DNA from: a virus
Length of the DNA stretch: 64,000 nt
Direction: 5' to 3' (one strand)
IMG/VR virus record: IMGVR_UViG_3300028590_000011
Span: 1-64,000 of that record
Shown here: piece by piece, positions 19,192-28,843 of the stretch
Position numbering within the stretch: position 1 is the stretch's first letter
Layout: each line of letters begins with the position of its first letter
Position numbers and translations under genes: made by a program
Notes under the pieces: model-generated
The model's input: the letters and a program-made list of their open reading frames with translations, nothing else
Told to the model about the DNA's origin: nothing
The model's database searches: none

Positions 19192-19959
19192 ATGAGAATG
19201 GCACGAGCAACGACAAAGACCGCCAACCAGGAGCCCACTCTGGAGCAGCTCCAGGAGGAACTGGCGGCAGCGAAGCGCAAGTTGCGTGAGCAGCGGATGA
19301 CCACCGTGCAGGTGGCGCAGAAGTACGCGGCGCAGCACAACCTCTGCTCCGTGGTGGACCAGGCGCTCACCGAGGCAGGTCTGCTCGGTGGCAGTGTCAG
19401 CAAGAAGGTCTCGATGTTGATCCCGGTCGAAGTCGTCATGGGCATCGATGGCGATCTGGTCGAGAACATGACCGAGGAGGAGATCAAGCAGGCCATCGCG
19501 GAGATGGCCAAGCCCACGTCCGTCAACTGGGGTGGATCCATCGGTCCGGTCACCTCGGTGGCCAACGGACGAGTCCGTCGTACCGAGCCTGTCTCCACTT
19601 TCGGAGAAGTGCAGGTGCTCAGTGTCGAGGATCCGCCCTCTCTGACCACCGTGAGCAACGACAACGGCTGGTCGAACCCGCCCAACGGGCACGTCGCGCT
19701 GTACACGGCCCCCGAAGGGCGGAAGCTGCACTTCGTCACGGCGGTGGAGACCAGTCATCACCGCGCGGTTGCGGTCGAGATCAACGGAATGACCTTCTAC
19801 ACCGTCCGCACTCCGCTGTGTGGTGCCTCGGTGTCGTACTACGGCGCTCCGTGGGCCATTGACTCGCCGCGCAAGGTCAGCGTAGGCACGCGCGATGGCA
19901 TCTGCCAGGGCTGCCGTGACCTCGCGCAGACGCGGTACGGATGGAGGCTCGGCCGATGA
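19192..19959 (+). CDS. Hypothetical protein
   Basis: SD and phage codon bias. Confidence 0.7.
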   Translation: MRMARATTKTANQEPTLEQLQEELAAAKRKLREQRMTTVQVAQKYAAQHNLCSVVDQALTEAGLLGGSVSKKVSMLIPVEVVMGIDGDLVENMTEEEIKQAIAEMAKPTSVNWGGSIGPVTSVANGRVRRTEPVSTFGEVQVLSVEDPPSLTTVSNDNGWSNPPNGHVALYTAPEGRKLHFVTAVETSHHRAVAVEINGMTFYTVRTPLCGASVSYYGAPWAIDSPRKVSVGTRDGICQGCRDLAQTRYGWRLGR

Positions 19960-20540
19960 CCGGCACCGACGAGGCGGTCGAGACTGCCAAGCAGGCGATG
20001 GAGGACCAGCGTCCTCTGAACGCCACGCAGGGTCGCAACCTCCAGAGGATCGTGAAGAACGACTTCGAGAGGCTGAAGGCCGAACTGGAGCTCTTCCGGG
20101 TCGAGGAGAGGACTCGCCGTGAGCAGGAGATCCGGGAGAACTACCGGACCAGCAGAGAGAGCCGAACCACGCTGGAGAACGAGATCCGAGTTCTCAACCG
20201 CCAGTACCGGGCGGAAGCGGAGCGCCTCCGAGGCAGAGCGCGCGAGATGGGTCTCACGGTCAACCAGGGCCTCACAGCTCCGAGCGAAGTCGTGGTCTTC
20301 GGCGAGGAGCGCCTCAACCAGGACATCCAAGCGATGTACCGCGAGGTCAACGGAGATGTGAACACTGCTCTCCGTACCGCAGAGGCCAAGTTCTACGAGG
20401 CCGAGCGGCTCGTGCTCATGGCCACCATCACGACCCAGGCAGAGAAGATCCTGTCCGGCATCCCCACGTCTCAGCAGCTCATGGCTGAGGCATACGAGCA
20501 GCGCGCCAAGCGCAAGGAACTCACAGGAGGAACACAGTGA
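19956..20540 (+). CDS. Coiled-coil hypothetical protein
   Basis: E/R-rich helical ORF. Confidence 0.7.
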   Translation: MTGTDEAVETAKQAMEDQRPLNATQGRNLQRIVKNDFERLKAELELFRVEERTRREQEIRENYRTSRESRTTLENEIRVLNRQYRAEAERLRGRAREMGLTVNQGLTAPSEVVVFGEERLNQDIQAMYREVNGDVNTALRTAEAKFYEAERLVLMATITTQAEKILSGIPTSQQLMAEAYEQRAKRKELTGGTQ

Positions 20541-21280
20541 GCATCTCTCTGGAGAAGCGCACCGAGAACGCCGGGATCAGCCTGGTGAAGGTGATGTCCG
20601 AGGCCGCAGCACAGGGTCTGAACGTCGATGACCTCACTGCGCAGTGCGTGCTGGTCATGGACTTCTCGGGCTCGATGGACTACCGCTACCGCAGCGGTGA
20701 GGTCCAGCAGCTCGCAGAGCGGACGCTGGCGCTGTCCCTGACCGGTCTGGACGACGACGGGAACATCCAGATCCACTTCTTCCACACCAAGGTCTTCCCG
20801 GAGATCGAGGTGGACGCGTCGAACTACACCGGCGCGGTGGACGAGTTCACCCGCAAGAACACCATGGGTGGCACCGCCTACGCTCCCGCGATCCGACAAG
20901 TCATCGAGAGCGTCACCGGTGGCAAGACCAAGAAGAAGGGTCTGTTCCGAAAGGAGACCCCAGCGGCTCCGGACGGTCCGGCCATGCCGACGCTGGTCTT
21001 CTTCGTCACGGACGGCGAGCCGAACGACCGGCAGGAGACCATCCAGCTCCTGAAGGACGCTTCGGGGCTGCCGATCTTCTGGCAGTTCCTCGGCGTCGGC
21101 TACTCCCCGGAGTTCCTGAAGGAGCTCGACACCATGGGCGGACGTGTCCTCGACAACGTCGGCCTCACCGAGGTGCCCTCGACGGAGTCCATGTCCGACG
21201 AGGAGTACTACGAGACGGTCTTGAAGGAGTTCGTCTCGTCCTGGGTGCCTGCGGCTCGCGCCAAGAGCATCATCGCGTAA
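20537..21280 (+). CDS. vWA domain protein (TerF-associated type)
   Basis: MIDAS DFSGSM, GGT.YAP, VTDGEP, PIFWQFLGVG, R..DN. Confidence 0.85.
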   Translation: MSISLEKRTENAGISLVKVMSEAAAQGLNVDDLTAQCVLVMDFSGSMDYRYRSGEVQQLAERTLALSLTGLDDDGNIQIHFFHTKVFPEIEVDASNYTGAVDEFTRKNTMGGTAYAPAIRQVIESVTGGKTKKKGLFRKETPAAPDGPAMPTLVFFVTDGEPNDRQETIQLLKDASGLPIFWQFLGVGYSPEFLKELDTMGGRVLDNVGLTEVPSTESMSDEEYYETVLKEFVSSWVPAARAKSIIA

Positions 21281-21311
21281 CCCTTCCAACCAACAAGGAG
21301 AGCAACACATC

Positions 21312-21566
21312 ATGACGAACACCGCAGTGGAGCAGGGGATGCTCTGCATCATGGACAAGACCGGCGACACCCGCATCATGTGGGACCCCCGCAACGCCGA
21401 CGAGGTCGACATCGCCAAGGCCGCGTTCAAGAAGGCCAAGGACAAGGGCATGGTCGCCTACGCCGTCGACAACACCACCGGCGAGAAGGTGGACGGCGAG
21501 GTCATCCGCGAGTTCGACCCGGCGCGCGGCAAGATCATCATGGCCCCGCAGCTCGTCGGCGGATGA
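21312..21566 (+). CDS. 84-aa protein ending in LVGG (candidate ubiquitin-like modifier)
   Basis: Good SD; C-terminal KIIMAPQLVGG-stop. Confidence 0.75.
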   Translation: MTNTAVEQGMLCIMDKTGDTRIMWDPRNADEVDIAKAAFKKAKDKGMVAYAVDNTTGEKVDGEVIREFDPARGKIIMAPQLVGG

Positions 21567-21859
21567 CCGACGAGATCACTGAGGAGACCGTCCTGCGGCA
21601 CATCTGCGAAGGGTGCGGCAAGGACGAGAACCTGACTGTTGCCGAGGCCTTCGAGGCGGGGTGGGACTACCCACCCCGTCTTGGGGTCTTCGGAGTCGTC
21701 TCCCCGCGTACCTGCGGGGAGTGCGGCATCGAGAAGACGCTCTGGTGGCGAATCCAGACCGGCGAGGTTCGTCCCGACGACCTCAGCTCGGAGGAGATGG
21801 AGTTCATCCAACGGGTCGTCAACGAACCCGAGTCCATCCTCGTGAAGGAGGAGAAGTGA
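21563..21859 (+). CDS. Zn-ribbon hypothetical protein
   Basis: CEGCG...TCGECG. Confidence 0.7.
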   Translation: MTDEITEETVLRHICEGCGKDENLTVAEAFEAGWDYPPRLGVFGVVSPRTCGECGIEKTLWWRIQTGEVRPDDLSSEEMEFIQRVVNEPESILVKEEK

Positions 21860-21860
21860 G

Positions 21861-22700
21861 ATGCCACGCATCAGCCAAGAAGTCGCAGCGGAGGTCGTGG
21901 TGGACCTCACCGAGACTGAGCGCGGGATCATCCCGTCCGATGAAGTCCAGAAGGTCGTCTGGCAAGGGTGGGCTGACGTGACACCCACCTGGACCCAGTG
22001 GACCAACAGCACCACCGTCACCTACCGGATCCAGCAGGATCGGGTCTGGAACCGATGGACTGTGGACGACGCCTGGACCGTCATGAACCCGGCGATCAAC
22101 GGGACCATCACGTACAACACCGCGTTCACCACGACGCAGGACTACGTGTGGACCAATTGGAACGCCCAGAGCGACACCGTCTACACCCGGACGTACCACC
22201 AGATGGACACGGGTCGGACGGCCGAGGAGATCCAGCACCTGGCGGATCGTCGTCAGGCGCTGAACGAGGCCGAGTCGCGTCGTCGGCTCCGGTATGAGCA
22301 GGAGCGCGAGCAGGCTGCTGCTCGGGCCCAGGCCCATGACCGGGGCATGGAACTGCTGAAGATGGTCATGTCCCATGAGGAGCTGGCGCTCTTCGAGATC
22401 GCGGGCAAGATCCATGTCCGTGGTTCCGAAGGTGGTCTGTACGAGATCGACACTCAGTACGGAGGCGTGCACGGCAACGTCGTGCAGGTCGATGAACACG
22501 GGTGCCAGCTCGGACGGATCTGCGTCGCACCGCAGATGCGGCTCGACAGCGGCGTGCTGCCGCTCTCGGACGGCTACGTCGGTCAGTACCTGGCGATCAA
22601 GCACCAGGAGGCCCTGTTCCGGGCGACCGGCAACTGGTCTCAACGGCGTACCTGCCAGCAGCCGAACGTCCCGATCCTCGGGGAGCAGCGAGCGGCATGA
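21861..22700 (+). CDS. Hypothetical protein, Trp/Thr-rich N-terminus and Cys-containing C-terminal domain
   Basis: HGNV...GRICVAP...LP..D in the C-terminal domain. Confidence 0.75.
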   Translation: MPRISQEVAAEVVVDLTETERGIIPSDEVQKVVWQGWADVTPTWTQWTNSTTVTYRIQQDRVWNRWTVDDAWTVMNPAINGTITYNTAFTTTQDYVWTNWNAQSDTVYTRTYHQMDTGRTAEEIQHLADRRQALNEAESRRRLRYEQEREQAAARAQAHDRGMELLKMVMSHEELALFEIAGKIHVRGSEGGLYEIDTQYGGVHGNVVQVDEHGCQLGRICVAPQMRLDSGVLPLSDGYVGQYLAIKHQEALFRATGNWSQRRTCQQPNVPILGEQRAA

Positions 22701-22885
22701 GCTACGAGGGTGGAGCGGGGGATGGTCACATCGACATCCCCCGCTTTGCTCTTGTCCCGCGAGGTAAGCAGCGGGTCAAGGGCCGGGTCCTGTCATACGA
22801 AGGGAACGGCTACTTCACCGTTCTCATCCCAGGTGACATCAAGGTGTTCATGCACCGTGATCGTCTGATCTTCGCCAACAAGTAG
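22697..22885 (+). CDS. Hypothetical protein
   Basis: ATGA overlap. Confidence 0.55.
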   Translation: MSYEGGAGDGHIDIPRFALVPRGKQRVKGRVLSYEGNGYFTVLIPGDIKVFMHRDRLIFANK

Positions 22886-24276: not shown

Positions 24277-24464
24277 GTGAGAACACCGCGCTCGCCGTCT
24301 ACATGACCATGCTCATCCTCACGCTGATCGTCGCTGGCGTCAGCGCCTTCGCCTACTACAAGAGCAAGGGCGAGATGGGCGGGATCGTGTTCATCCTGGC
24401 CGCATGTGCCGCTATCGCGCTGGGTTCGTATCTCATCGACGCAGCGGAAAGGGCACTCGCGTGA
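24273..24464 (+). CDS. Small 2-TM membrane protein
   Basis: Two hydrophobic segments. Confidence 0.6.
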   Translation: MSENTALAVYMTMLILTLIVAGVSAFAYYKSKGEMGGIVFILAACAAIALGSYLIDAAERALA

Positions 24465-24579
24465 TCAACGACATGTTGCAGGTTCTCTGGACCCTGCGCT
24501 TCCACATCGGCTTCGGGCTGCTGCTCGTTCTGGGTGGCTACCTGTACGCCTGCGGCTCTACCGTGAGGATGGAGGACTG

Positions 24580-25281
24580 ATGGAGGTCCCGGACGGACAC
24601 TTCAGCTTGCCGATGGCGATGATGTTGGCTCGGTCCAACGTCGTCTCTGAGGCTCATGAGATGGACGAGAGGATTCGTCCATTCCCGGAGCAGTACGCCA
24701 TGGGTCCTGGTTGCTACGGGATCGTGGCGAGTTCCAGGTCCATGGTCGAGCAGGACTTCACACTCTTGAAGCTGCTCGATCCCGAGGAGCACAAGGACGC
24801 CTTCCCGAACTGGGAGGAGCGGTTGCAACGCTCCTACGTTCTGTGCGAGTGGCTCTCCAACGACGACCCCGAGGGCGACATCGGCTGGTTCAGCCGCGTG
24901 AAGCTGGTGGAGATCACCGAGGAACAGTACGCCGAGGTGAAGACCTGGATCAGGGAAGACGCGCTCCCCGACGAGCCGCCCGACTGGTTGGACGAGGCCT
25001 ACGCGCTCTACACCGAGCGGCTCTCCAAGATGGCCCCGGACGATGTCACCGTGAACGTCCTGTGCGGTGAGTGTGGGTCGCGCAAGGTCGAGATCCACAT
25101 CTACCACGCCATCCGCAAGGCTGCCCCCGCTGGTCAAGTCGAGAAGGACGGCAAGACCGTCTTCCTCCCCATGGGTCATCGCGGCTCGTCCGACTGCGTC
25201 GCGCAGATCCACCTGCACTGTCAGGACTGCAACGCGCGACGCGACCTGGACGACGACGAGATCGGCTTCGACGCCCACTGA
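24580..25281 (+). CDS. Hypothetical protein with C-terminal Zn ribbon
   Basis: CGECG...HCQDC. Confidence 0.7.
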   Translation: MEVPDGHFSLPMAMMLARSNVVSEAHEMDERIRPFPEQYAMGPGCYGIVASSRSMVEQDFTLLKLLDPEEHKDAFPNWEERLQRSYVLCEWLSNDDPEGDIGWFSRVKLVEITEEQYAEVKTWIREDALPDEPPDWLDEAYALYTERLSKMAPDDVTVNVLCGECGSRKVEIHIYHAIRKAAPAGQVEKDGKTVFLPMGHRGSSDCVAQIHLHCQDCNARRDLDDDEIGFDAH

Positions 25282-26951: not shown

Positions 26952-27206
26952 ATGGCAACACTCACTCGTTTCACCGCCGACCTCGTCACCCAGGAGGCGC
27001 TCTCCGAGCGTCGGGTCGAGATCATCTCGCGTCAGCTGACCGAGTACCTCCACACCCTCATCGTGGAGGACGACGACCGCCCGCACCTGGAGGTCGACAA
27101 GAACGCCCACGGCCACGTCCACGACACGGCCGATGGTGACCGCTGCGGCTACTGCCTGGAGGAGTCCAGGGACTACCGCAACGGCGACTCCGTCGTCAAC
27201 GCGTGA
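26952..27206 (+). CDS. Hypothetical protein
   Basis: CA-rich leader plus SD; H.H...C..C. Confidence 0.65.
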   Translation: MATLTRFTADLVTQEALSERRVEIISRQLTEYLHTLIVEDDDRPHLEVDKNAHGHVHDTADGDRCGYCLEESRDYRNGDSVVNA

Positions 27207-27250
27207 CGACAACCTTCCAACAACACACCACAGAGAGAGATCAAGACAAC

Positions 27251-28843
27251 ATGCCTTCCATCGAAGCGAACACGTTCACCGACCGCGTCTCCAAGAAGAG
27301 CACCCAGGAGACCCTCGCCAAGCTGCGCGAGATCGGCGGTGGCAAGATCACCGAGGAGTCGGGGATCAAGTACCACAACGGTCGGGAGATCCTCCTGCCC
27401 GAGGGGATGGCCCTGAAGACGGCGGCGAAGCTCGTCACCGCGCAGGCCGTCTCCATGGAGGAGCAGCACGACTTCACGAAGGTCTTCAAGTACCGGCCTC
27501 TGGACGGCGCGTACGCGTTGCAGGAGACCCTCCGTGAGATCTTCGGCCTGTCCGGCACGGGCAAGGCCATCCACACGATGTTCGGCAGCCAGCCGCCGCA
27601 GTACATCAACGTGGAGATCGGCATCGGCGTCGAGGTCCGGGTCCCCTGGGGCCACATCGACTTCCCGCCGTTCGAGGGCATGTTCATGACCGGGGCGAGC
27701 CACGACCCGGACTACGGCCTGCTCTTCCAGGTGACCTGCCGCGCACCGAAGAAGTACGAGCCCGAGATCGAGGGCCTCTGGCTCGCGGTCGAGGACACCC
27801 TGCGCCGCAAGTCCATCTACAAGGGCAAGGCGATCGTCGGCGTCGGCCGGGTCACGCGGGAGGGCATGGAGAGCCCGAAGTTCCTCAACCCGTTCGCCGT
27901 CGACCCCAACACCGTCGCCTACTCGCAGGACGTGCTCAACGCCCTGCGGTCGTCGCTGTGGGGCCCGATCCGCACCGCCGAGCTCCAGCGGGCGGCGGGG
28001 CTGAAGCTCAACCGCAAGACCCTGCTGTACGGCACCTTCGGCACCGGCAAGTCGCTGGCCGGTGCACTCACGTCCCGCGCGGCGGTCAACAACGGCTGGA
28101 CCTTCATCCAGACCAAGACCGGCGACGAGGACCTGGAGAAGGTCCTGAAGACCGCCGAGCTCTACGCCCCGGCCGTGGTCTTCATCGAGGACATCGACAC
28201 GCTCATCGAGTCGGACCCCTCGGAGATGGCCAAGCTGCTGGAGCTGTTCGACGGCATCGGCAGCAAGGACAAGGAGGTCATGGTGCTGATGACCTCCAAC
28301 TACATCGAGGCGCTCAGCAAGGGCATGACCCGCGTCGGGCGCATCGACGCGGCGGTCGAGATCGGTGACCTCGACCAGGGCGCCATCCGCAGGCTCATCT
28401 CGAACTCCTTCGAGGACACCGAGCCCTACGACGGCAGCGTGGACCACGGCATCTTCGAGGCCATGTCCAAGCGCCTCAACACCTCGGACTTCAACGTCAA
28501 GAAGGGCAGCCAGCTCTCCGACGACGTGGACTTCGAGAAGGTCCTGGAGTCCATGAAGGGCTACGAGCCCGCCTTCATCATGGGCACGTTCAACCTGGCG
28601 AAGTCCAACGCCATCATCCGCACGGAGTCGCTCAACTTCGAGCTGACCACCGAGGACTTCGTCCTGGCGGCGGACACCCTCCGCAACCAGCACGACACCC
28701 ACCAGAACGCGGCGGACCGCCCCGCCGTGGACACCTTCGGGCAGTCGCAGAAGAAGCTCATCGCGGAGACCGTGGCCGAGCAGCTCCAGGGCCACAAGGT
28801 GGACCTCAGCGACGAGGGTCAGCTCATCACCCTCGAAGCCTGA
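27251..28843 (+). CDS. AAA+ ATPase (classical clade-like)
   Basis: Walker A GTFGTGKS, Walker B VVFIEDID, second region of homology TSN...TRVGRID. Confidence 0.9.
   Translation: MPSIEANTFTDRVSKKSTQETLAKLREIGGGKITEESGIKYHNGREILLPEGMALKTAAKLVTAQAVSMEEQHDFTKVFKYRPLDGAYALQETLREIFGLSGTGKAIHTMFGSQPPQYINVEIGIGVEVRVPWGHIDFPPFEGMFMTGASHDPDYGLLFQVTCRAPKKYEPEIEGLWLAVEDTLRRKSIYKGKAIVGVGRVTREGMESPKFLNPFAVDPNTVAYSQDVLNALRSSLWGPIRTAELQRAAGLKLNRKTLLYGTFGTGKSLAGALTSRAAVNNGWTFIQTKTGDEDLEKVLKTAELYAPAVVFIEDIDTLIESDPSEMAKLLELFDGIGSKDKEVMVLMTSNYIEALSKGMTRVGRIDAAVEIGDLDQGAIRRLISNSFEDTEPYDGSVDHGIFEAMSKRLNTSDFNVKKGSQLSDDVDFEKVLESMKGYEPAFIMGTFNLAKSNAIIRTESLNFELTTEDFVLAADTLRNQHDTHQNAADRPAVDTFGQSQKKLIAETVAEQLQGHKVDLSDEGQLITLEA

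What the first reader, a model, noticed from the sequence alone, without database searches (positions are those of the whole stretch)
20537..22700. Candidate phage ubiquitin-like conjugation module: LVGG-ending small protein plus E2-like Cys protein, with vWA and Zn ribbon
Seen: the 84-aa protein (21312-21566) ends in a hydrophobic strand then PQLVGG-stop. Two genes on, 21861-22700 has VHGNVVQVDEHGCQLGRICVAP. A vWA gene and a Zn-ribbon gene flank the small gene. Established: Ub/ThiS/MoaD/SAMP proteins end in strand-P-x-x-x-GG, E2 enzymes carry HPN(V/I)...G.IC, and prokaryotic Ub operons can include vWA and JAB genes. Inference: a minimal modifier-ligase pair, perhaps using a host E1 or decoying Ubl-based antiphage systems. 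Caveats: the N-to-Cys spacing is longer than in canonical E2s, and no E1 is visible.
Basis: partly seen in the sequence, partly recalled or inferred. Interest (0 to 1): 0.75.

Follow-up and report, generated by a model that had tools for sequence, protein, structure and literature searches.

The report
Phage GG-tailed ubiquitin-like protein with partner
Many uncultured phages carry an unannotated two-gene unit, a small ubiquitin-shaped protein always ending in Gly-Gly and a partner with an E2-like fold and one invariant cysteine, which may be a phage protein-tagging device lacking its own activating enzyme.

Summary
The 84-aa protein (21312-21566) ends LVGG-stop, and the 279-aa protein (21861-22700) carries the quoted Cys motif.

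The two genes form a conserved module:
- In 28 non-redundant viral loci, the small gene lies directly upstream of the partner gene in 27. The 28th is cut at a contig end.
- 29 of 30 copies of the small gene end exactly in GG-stop.
The family spans about 7,800 clusters at 50% identity and has no Pfam, PHROG, NCBIfam or PADLOC model.

A complex prediction scores 0.81 against 0.01 for the best control. It lays the Ubl tail along residues 221-226, heading towards C221.

The vWA and Zn-ribbon genes are local neighbours, not conserved parts. No E1 or JAB gene is present in the complete phage genomes searched.

Verdict: a Ubl plus E2-like pair is likely, but its chemistry is unproven. It is new and interesting.

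The parts
21312..21566 (+). Ubl-like gene: 84 aa, predicted strand-strand-helix-strand-strand-strand, ends QLVGG-stop.
   Evidence: ORF. The AF2 model has pLDDT 79.6. The best fold matches are all beta-grasp types but weak.
21861..22700 (+). Partner gene ('E2L'): 279 aa. It has a low-confidence, Trp/Thr-rich N-terminus, long helices at residues 89-169, and a conserved C-terminal domain.
   Evidence: It lies directly downstream of the Ubl gene in 27 of 28 loci.
22308..22700 (+). C-terminal domain of the partner (residues 150-279). Predicted order is helix, four strands, two helices. This is the UBC/RWD-like part that is predicted to bind the Ubl.
22521..22523 (+). Codon of Cys221, the invariant cysteine and candidate catalytic residue.
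   Evidence: Kept in 182 of 182 representatives. Invariant in alignments A2, A3 and A4. It lies in the predicted interface next to the Ubl tail.
22476..22478 (+). Codon of Asn206. The G-N pair is invariant.
   Evidence: N206 100%, G205 99%.
22569..22571 (+). Codon of Asp237. It is invariant and sits in the predicted interface.
21563..21859 (+). 98-aa Zn-ribbon gene with two CxxC pairs, inserted between the pair in this phage only. Its start overlaps the Ubl stop.
   Evidence: It is not found in the other loci.
20537..21280 (+). vWA-TerF-like gene. It is a neighbour, not a conserved part of the module.
   Evidence: Pfam PF10138 at E 6e-45 and phrog_5359 at E 8e-56. Absent from the other loci.
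22697..22885 (+). 62-aa ORF whose start overlaps the partner gene's stop. No relatives were found.

Best explanation
This is a phage-borne two-gene unit. One gene encodes a small ubiquitin-like (beta-grasp-type) protein whose free C-terminal Gly-Gly is its working end. The other encodes a cognate partner whose C-terminal domain has a UBC/RWD-like fold.

The partner is predicted to hold the small protein by its sheet face. The tail is laid in a groove formed by residues 221-226 and the following helix, so the Gly-Gly comes to the invariant Cys221, beside the invariant Gly205-Asn206 and Asp237.

The most likely chemistry is E2-like. The activated Gly-Gly carboxylate would be taken over as a thioester on Cys221 and passed to an amine of a host or phage protein. 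The phage has no E1, so activation would have to come from a host E1-like adenylating enzyme (MoeB/ThiF/MoeZ type) or from an unknown route.

Shown here: the pairing, the conservation, the lack of an E1, and the predicted binding mode.
Inferred: the thioester, the transfer, the source of activation and the targets.

The vWA and Zn-ribbon genes are local neighbours only.
For: 1. Terminal GG. It is invariant in 16 of 16 close homologues and in 47 of 47 family members that align to the end. 29 of 30 genomic copies end exactly GG-stop.

2. Linkage. Loci were picked from the Ubl side and, independently, from the partner side.
- The Ubl gene sits directly upstream on the same strand in 27 of 28 non-redundant loci. 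The exception is cut at a contig end.
- Stop and start often overlap.
- No third gene is conserved.
- The pair also occurs in a 595-kb low-GC phage.

3. Inheritance as a unit.
- Three phages carry two pairs each.
- The second pairs of L009 and L016 are each other's best match for both the Ubl (59%) and the partner (51%), but only 29-39% identical to the sibling pair in the same genome.
- Distance matrices correlate at r = 0.79, with 0 of 2,000 permutations reaching that value.

4. Polar invariants in the partner. N206, C221, P234 and D237 are kept in 182 of 182 representatives, and G205 and Q242 in 99%. There is no invariant His, which fits an E2-type site better than a Cys-His peptidase.

5. 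Folds.
- Among the partner domain's matches that are not coiled coils, most belong to the UBC/RWD/UEV group:
- About a dozen further E2 entries align in the same register.

6. Complex prediction.
- Score 0.81; best of 3 controls 0.01. That mark was reached by 58 of 80 solved complexes and 2 of 110 mismatched pairs. These counts hold only roughly, because my own alignments were used.
- The runs agree in at least 97% of their contacts, and the partner chain's pLDDT is at least 80.
- The interface holds Ubl residues 78-84 (the whole tail) and partner residues H204, G205, C221-M226 and D237.
- Tail residues 79-81 run antiparallel to partner residues 222-225.
Against: - No E1/ThiF gene in three complete phage genomes or three partial ones, and no Prok-JAB gene in this one. 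No E2 is known to work without an E1, and every described bacterial Ubl system encodes one (PMC11601596).
- No UBC, Prok-E2 or ThiS profile matches either protein, even at E 0.1. Profiles of both families find nothing among PDB sequences.
- The G-N pair lies before strand 3 of the model, not after strand 4 as HPN does in E2 enzymes. The active-site geometry is therefore not the canonical one.
- A very confident interface of about 100 contacts looks more like a stable heterodimer than a transient E2-Ub encounter.
- No conjugate, thioester or target has been observed.
Confidence: 0.5

Rival explanations
1. The two proteins form a stable non-covalent heterodimer with no conjugation chemistry. It could be a regulator, or a decoy or inhibitor that soaks up a host E1-like enzyme or a host Ubl-based defence (Bil, Bub, type II CBASS). 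The conserved residues would serve binding only.
For: The predicted interface is large and very confident, at about 100 contacts. The phage has no E1 or deconjugating peptidase. UEV and RWD domains, which are non-catalytic, rank as high as true E2s among the fold matches.
Against: The strictly invariant residues are Cys, Asn, Asp and Gln, clustered where the tail ends. The exact GG-stop end is kept in 29 of 30 copies. Binding alone would tolerate more variation at both places.
Confidence: 0.2
2. The pair is a carrier protein and its synthase, like MoaD-MoaE, ThiS-ThiG or CysO-CysM. The Gly-Gly end would be adenylated and thiocarboxylated by a host MoeB/ThiF/MoeZ enzyme. It would then deliver sulfur, or another group, to a small molecule or nucleic acid in the partner's active site, with Cys221 taking part.
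For: The tail is predicted to insert into a partner groove in a stable complex, as in molybdopterin synthase (established knowledge of MoaD-MoaE). Dependence on a host E1-like enzyme is normal for such carriers. Some partners carry an N-terminal phage DNA-binding zinc finger (PF24623 in 4 of 36), and one is fused to a phosphoesterase-like domain.
Against: Neither protein matches ThiS/MoaD, MoaE, ThiG or PLP-enzyme profiles. The partner's fold matches are UBC/RWD-like, not those of the known synthases. No biosynthetic genes are conserved nearby.
Confidence: 0.15
3. The partner is a cysteine peptidase or transpeptidase that acts at the Gly-Gly site. It would process extended precursors or remove the Ubl from targets.
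For: The tail is predicted to lie over an invariant Cys. Rare family members read on past GG: L022, P0197 and P0198.
Against: No His is invariant. H204 and H213 are lost in diverged members. 29 of 30 copies need no processing. No peptidase fold or profile matches.
Confidence: 0.1

Closest known systems
Bacterial Bub systems (type I: Ubl-E2 fusion BubAB, JAB-E1 fusion BubCD, BubE)
   Different: Bub always has an E1 and usually a peptidase. It works through Ser/Tyr oxyesters and is a bacterial, presumably antiphage, system. Here there is no E1 or JAB, the invariant residue is Cys, and the carrier is a phage. No sequence relation was detected.
Bil systems (BilA Ubl, BilB E2, BilC JAB, BilD E1) and type II CBASS Cap2/Cap3
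   Different: These are host defence operons with an E1 and a JAB (PMC11601596, PMC10557695). The present pair is on the phage side, has two genes only, and belongs to unannotated families.
Eukaryotic E2 enzymes and their non-catalytic kin (UBC, UEV, RWD)
Sulfur-carrier pairs (MoaD-MoaE, ThiS-ThiG, CysO-CysM) and E2-less conjugation (TtuB, SAMP, Urm1)
   Same: A small beta-grasp protein ends in GG. Activation is by an E1-like enzyme encoded elsewhere. The tail inserts into the partner.
   Different: There is no ThiS/MoaD profile match, and the partner fold is unlike the known synthases. TtuB and SAMP conjugation needs an E1 but no E2, which is the opposite of what is seen here.

Membership tests
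Ubiquitin-like modifiers (beta-grasp proteins with a conjugatable C-terminus) | Beta-grasp fold | tested here: inconclusive
Ubiquitin-like modifiers (beta-grasp proteins with a conjugatable C-terminus) | Exposed C-terminal Gly-Gly | tested here: met
   GG is kept in 47 of 47 aligned members, and 29 of 30 genomic copies end GG-stop.
Ubiquitin-like modifiers (beta-grasp proteins with a conjugatable C-terminus) | Covalent attachment to targets through the C-terminus | not testable with these tools
   This needs biochemistry or proteomics.
UBC/E2 superfamily | UBC fold (helix, four-stranded sheet, crossover helix) | tested here: inconclusive
UBC/E2 superfamily | HPN motif preceding the catalytic Cys by about 8 residues | tested here: not met
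   Only G205-N206 is invariant, and H204 is lost in diverged members. The spacing from N to the invariant C221 is 15 residues here and 13-21 elsewhere. The motif lies before strand 3 of the model.
UBC/E2 superfamily | Invariant catalytic Cys between strand 4 and the crossover helix | tested here: inconclusive
   C221 is kept in 182 of 182 representatives. It ends strand 4 and lies 14 residues before helix 235-248. Catalysis was not tested.
UBC/E2 superfamily | Match to a UQ_con or Prok-E2 sequence profile | tested here: not met
   There is no Pfam hit at E up to 0.1 for the 279-aa protein, none in 36 representatives, and none in NCBIfam or PADLOC.
Prokaryotic Ubl conjugation operons (Bil, Bub, type II CBASS) | E1 (ThiF-family adenylating enzyme) encoded with the Ubl and E2 | tested here: not met
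   PF00899 is absent from this 99%-complete genome, from two 100%-complete relatives and from three partial ones. No such gene was found among the flanking ORFs scanned.
Prokaryotic Ubl conjugation operons (Bil, Bub, type II CBASS) | JAB/JAMM peptidase in the operon | tested here: not met
   PF14464 is absent from this genome. It was not searched in the other records.
ThiS/MoaD sulfur carriers | Match to the ThiS/MoaD profile and a known synthase partner | tested here: not met
   There is no Pfam or NCBIfam hit. The Atlas's nearest named cluster is ThiS at 0.75, which is chance level.
Pup (actinobacterial prokaryotic ubiquitin-like protein) | Disordered protein ending in GGQ or GGE | tested here: not met
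   The protein is predicted to be folded and ends in GG-stop.
vWA-TerF-like (PF10138), for gene 20537-21280 only | Profile match above the curated cut-off | tested here: met
   154 bits against a cut-off of 29.4. This gene is not a conserved partner of the pair.

The most novel reading that the evidence does not exclude
Tailed phages, from soil actinophage-like viruses to 600-kb huge phages, carry their own minimal ubiquitin-like tagging machinery: a GG-ended modifier and a cognate E2-like Cys enzyme. It would hijack a host E1-like sulfur-carrier activating enzyme, or use an unknown activation route, to tag host or phage proteins during infection. This would be the first Ubl conjugation system found on the viral side of the phage-bacterium conflict, and the first to work without an E1 of its own.
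Probability: 0.35. Interest if true: 0.9.

Novelty: new variant of a known kind. Interest (0 to 1): 0.78.

Why it matters
All prokaryotic ubiquitin-like conjugation systems described so far (Bil, Bub, type II CBASS Cap2) are host defence operons with an E1 (PMC11601596, PMC10557695). My searches of the paper library found no report of a phage-encoded Ubl/E2-type pair.

Here both proteins belong to families without any Pfam, PHROG, NCBIfam or PADLOC model. Even so, the partner domain alone spans about 7,800 clusters at 50% identity.

If the pair conjugates proteins, it opens three questions:
- how phages use Ub-like tagging against their hosts;
- whether an E2-like enzyme can be served by a sulfur-carrier E1;
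- how E2 and Ubl chemistry diversified.

If it does not conjugate, it is still a very common and unexplained phage heterodimer. It comes with a clear, cheap experimental handle: GG and C221 mutants.

Tried and rejected
- The cultured and GenBank phage collection gave almost nothing.
  - There was no DNA match for the region.
  - There was no tblastn match for the Ubl, for the L008 partner, or for the diverged partners P0148 and P0167.
  - The window's partner gave a single weak hit, in huge phage LR756511.1, and this proved to be a true pair.
- Agrobacterium phage Atu_ph07 was suggested by a BFVD row. It has no profile match and was dropped.
- Pattern scans of 185,579 prokaryotic species genomes found no relatives with either family. 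These patterns reach close relatives only. The genome search cannot draw relatives for a virus record.
- Profiles of both families found nothing meaningful among PDB sequences.
- Foldseek against PDB gave nothing significant for the partner.
- The ESM Atlas gave only unnamed, mostly viral clusters.
- Zn ribbon as a third component: CxxC...CxxC ORFs occur at 0.19 per kb near the pair and 0.12 per kb farther away. This crude regex even missed the window's own ribbon, so the association is not established.
- vWA link: no vWA recurs by BLAST clustering.
  - One neighbour in L022 has a TROVE domain.
  - One in L008 looked TROVE/vWA-like by eye, but Pfam did not confirm it.
- Longer forms of the Ubl: three were found, none fused to the partner.
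- Sequencing runs: six soil metagenome DNA holders were listed, and no RNA holder.
Full report
**What is there**

The window belongs to an 80,039-bp virus record that is 99% complete by CheckV.
- It has a GC content of about 0.62 and no tRNA genes.
- It encodes PolIII-alpha, DnaB, a Mu-type portal and a MuF-like protein.
- Its portal is closest to those of Arthrobacter phages, at about 45% identity.
- The DNA is held in soil metagenomes.

The finding lies in a plus-strand block of small genes.

| Coordinates | Product |
|---|---|
| 20537-21280 | vWA gene (PF10138, E 6e-45; phrog_5359) |
| 21312-21566 | 84-aa protein ending QLVGG-stop |
| 21563-21859 | 98-aa protein with two CxxC pairs |
| 21861-22700 | 279-aa protein with VHGNVVQVDEHGCQLGRICVAP |
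| 22697-22885 | 62-aa ORF |

Stops and starts overlap or abut, so the last four genes are probably translated as one unit.

**The small protein**

It has no Pfam, PHROG, NCBIfam or PADLOC match. Fifteen metagenomic homologues were found. In their alignment the last two residues are GG in 16 of 16 sequences.

Adding diverged copies from viral loci brings the set to 48 sequences.
- G18 is kept in 100%.
- D25 and D69 are kept in 98%.
- F39 and F68 are kept in 96%.
- GG is kept in all 47 sequences that align to the end.

Of 30 genomic copies in non-redundant loci, 29 end GG-stop. The exception (L022) has ...RGG and then reads on. Two database proteins also read on past GG.

The AF2 model (pLDDT 79.6) has the order strand-strand-helix-strand-strand-strand. 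Its best structural neighbours are all beta-grasp types but weak.
- FAT10, ubiquitin and SUMO2 match at Foldseek E 0.02-0.1.

**The partner**

The 279-aa protein likewise matches no library. It has 48 homologues in the first search.

The model shows three regions:
- a low-confidence N-terminus rich in W-x-x-W and Thr;
- long helices at residues 89-169;
- a confident C-terminal domain made of a helix, four strands and two helices.

I built a profile of that domain from ten diverged copies (A3). It finds 7,787 clusters at 50% identity with E up to 1e-3, and 3,626 at 1e-10. In the 150 best matches listed, the domain sits at or near the C-terminus of proteins of 75 to about 520 aa.

In 182 representatives, conservation is as follows:
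- N206, C221, P234 and D237 are kept in 100%.
- G191, G205 and Q242 are kept in 99%.
- P224 and N258 are kept in 97%.

H204, H213 and C215 are conserved only in the near subfamily. The more E2-like spacing from N206 to C215 is a subfamily feature only.

Foldseek finds nothing significant in PDB.

- RWD domains;
- UEV domains;
- a FANCL-complex chain;
- a chain of the BubCD-BubB-BubA entry;
- the E2 part of Cap2;
- BRISC UEV-like chains;
- kinetochore RWD proteins.

These scores lie in the range that the tool calls common, so the fold call is a consistent lead and not a proof.

The spacing argument is my inference. C221 lies 14 residues before helix 235-248, as Cys85 of UbcH5 lies 14 residues before its crossover helix.

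Against a canonical E2: the G-N pair precedes strand 3 in the model, whereas HPN follows strand 4 in E2 enzymes.

**The pairing**

Nine viral loci were fetched with the Ubl as query. All carry a partner gene directly downstream once diverged copies are read.

Nineteen further loci were fetched with partner subfamilies as query. All carry a Ubl gene ending in GG directly upstream, with two exceptions: one locus cut at the contig end, and L022.

The non-redundant tally is partner in 28 of 28 loci and Ubl in 27 of 28. No other gene family is shared across the loci.

In several loci the partner's GTG start lies 8 nt before the Ubl stop.

A 595-kb low-GC uncultured phage has the pair with one gene in between.

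Three phages have two pairs each.
- The second pairs of L009 and L016 are each other's best match for both proteins (59% and 51% identity).
- They are only 29-39% identical to the sibling pair in the same genome.
- The two distance matrices correlate at r = 0.79, and 0 of 2,000 permutations reach that value. Shared descent inflates this number. The within-genome paralogues are the cleaner argument that Ubl and partner are inherited and diverge as a unit.

**Predicted binding**

I folded the partner domain (residues 150-279, alignment A3) with the Ubl (alignment A1).
- The score was 0.81, and the best of 3 controls was 0.01.
- That mark was reached by 58 of 80 solved complexes and 2 of 110 mismatched pairs. 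These counts hold only roughly, because my own alignments were used.
- The runs agree in at least 97% of contacts, and the partner chain's pLDDT is at least 80.

The model supports binding but does not show it. No similar solved complex was found by sequence, so a pass from memory is unlikely.

The interface contains:
- the Ubl's first hairpin, strands 3-5 and the whole tail (residues 78-84);
- on the partner, H204, G205, C221-M226, residues 230-234, 236-238 (which include D237), and the following helix.

The lowest-error pairs put tail residues 79-81 antiparallel to partner residues 222-225. By extrapolation, G83-G84 reach C221 and G205. This step is inferred, because I could not read coordinates.

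The arrangement resembles the closed E2~Ub state. The sheet face sits on the first helix after the Cys, and the tail runs in a groove towards the Cys.

**What is missing**

- No ThiF-family E1 is present in this genome, in two 100%-complete relatives or in three partial ones.
- No Prok-JAB is present in this genome.
- None of the 20 flanking ORFs scanned is an adenylating enzyme or a peptidase. They include an SNF2 helicase, a Band 7 protein, a TROVE protein, a glycosyltransferase and an AAA protein.
- The vWA and Zn-ribbon genes are not conserved neighbours.
- Some partners carry an N-terminal phage zinc finger (PF24623 in 4 of 36).

**Reading**

The pairing and the conservation are firm. The mechanism is inferred.

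I favour an E2-like role for three reasons:
- an invariant Cys with Asn and Asp, but no invariant His, sits at the predicted end point of an invariant free Gly-Gly tail;
- the domain's only fold neighbours are UBC/RWD-like;
- Ubl and E2 encoded as one unit has a precedent in the Bub systems, where they are fused (PMC11601596).

The absence of an E1 is the main difficulty. It forces the assumption that a host E1-like enzyme, or something unknown, activates the tail.

The rivals are:
- a non-catalytic heterodimer or decoy;
- a MoaD/ThiS-like carrier with its synthase;
- a peptidase acting at the GG site.

This is not a member of the Bil, Bub or Cap2 systems, because it has no E1 or JAB and no profile match. 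Membership of the UBC superfamily is unproven.

No paper describing such a phage pair was found. Earlier notes of this scan are untested first-reader notes on the same stretch.

Noticed in passing
window 21950-22180 (partner residues about 30-105); also N-termini of P0017-P0063: The partner's N-terminal region is built of repeated W-x-x-W motifs set in Thr-rich stretches. It is predicted at low confidence (pLDDT below 50). It is present in most homologues but variable in length and absent from minimal forms of 107-135 aa.
   Followed up: partly
L028:2646-4274: A second partner-family gene in this locus is fused at its C-terminus to what looks, by eye, like a calcineurin-like metallophosphoesterase (GDxHG and GNHE motifs). 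This was not checked with Pfam.
   Followed up: no
L022:2127-2903; proteins P0197 and P0198: Rare Ubl copies read on past the GG. L022 has no stop after ...RGG. P0197 continues into a Cys/His-rich, HNH-like tail. P0198 has a 94-aa extension. These could be precursors that need processing, or assembly or gene-calling errors.
   Followed up: partly
L002:5589-6755, L004:5224-6222; P0022, P0038 and others: Some partners carry an N-terminal CPxC...C zinc finger (Pfam Phage_zn_bind_8, PF24623, in 4 of 36 representatives). In this window a separate, unrelated-looking Zn-ribbon gene sits between the pair instead.
   Followed up: partly
L022:3908-5512; L008:2955-4442: A TROVE (Ro60-like) domain gene lies about 0.9 kb downstream of the pair in L022 (E 3e-18). 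A 495-aa gene upstream of the pair in L008 looks TROVE/vWA-like by eye, but Pfam did not confirm it.
   Followed up: partly
window 19941-20540 and 20537-21280: A 199-aa coiled-coil-like protein with no family match ends in an overlap with the GTG start of the vWA-TerF-like gene. The two may form a separate coupled pair.
   Followed up: no
window 24406-25281; L009:6397-7185: A protein of about 260-290 aa with a C-terminal Cys cluster appears in the same neighbourhood in this phage and in L009. The likeness was seen by eye only, and neither has a Pfam match.
   Followed up: no
window 27203-28843: A 546-aa AAA-family ATPase (PF00004, E 1.6e-13) lies 4.5 kb downstream on the same strand. It was not tested for linkage with the pair.
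   Followed up: no
BFVD entries A0A1P8DIP4 and A0A1P8DIR1: Two unnamed viral proteins with neighbouring accessions (268 and 245 aa) are the only confident BFVD structural matches to the partner model (E 5e-4 and 7e-3; rmsd 2.5 over 106 columns). They may be a two-pair phage already in UniProt.
   Followed up: no
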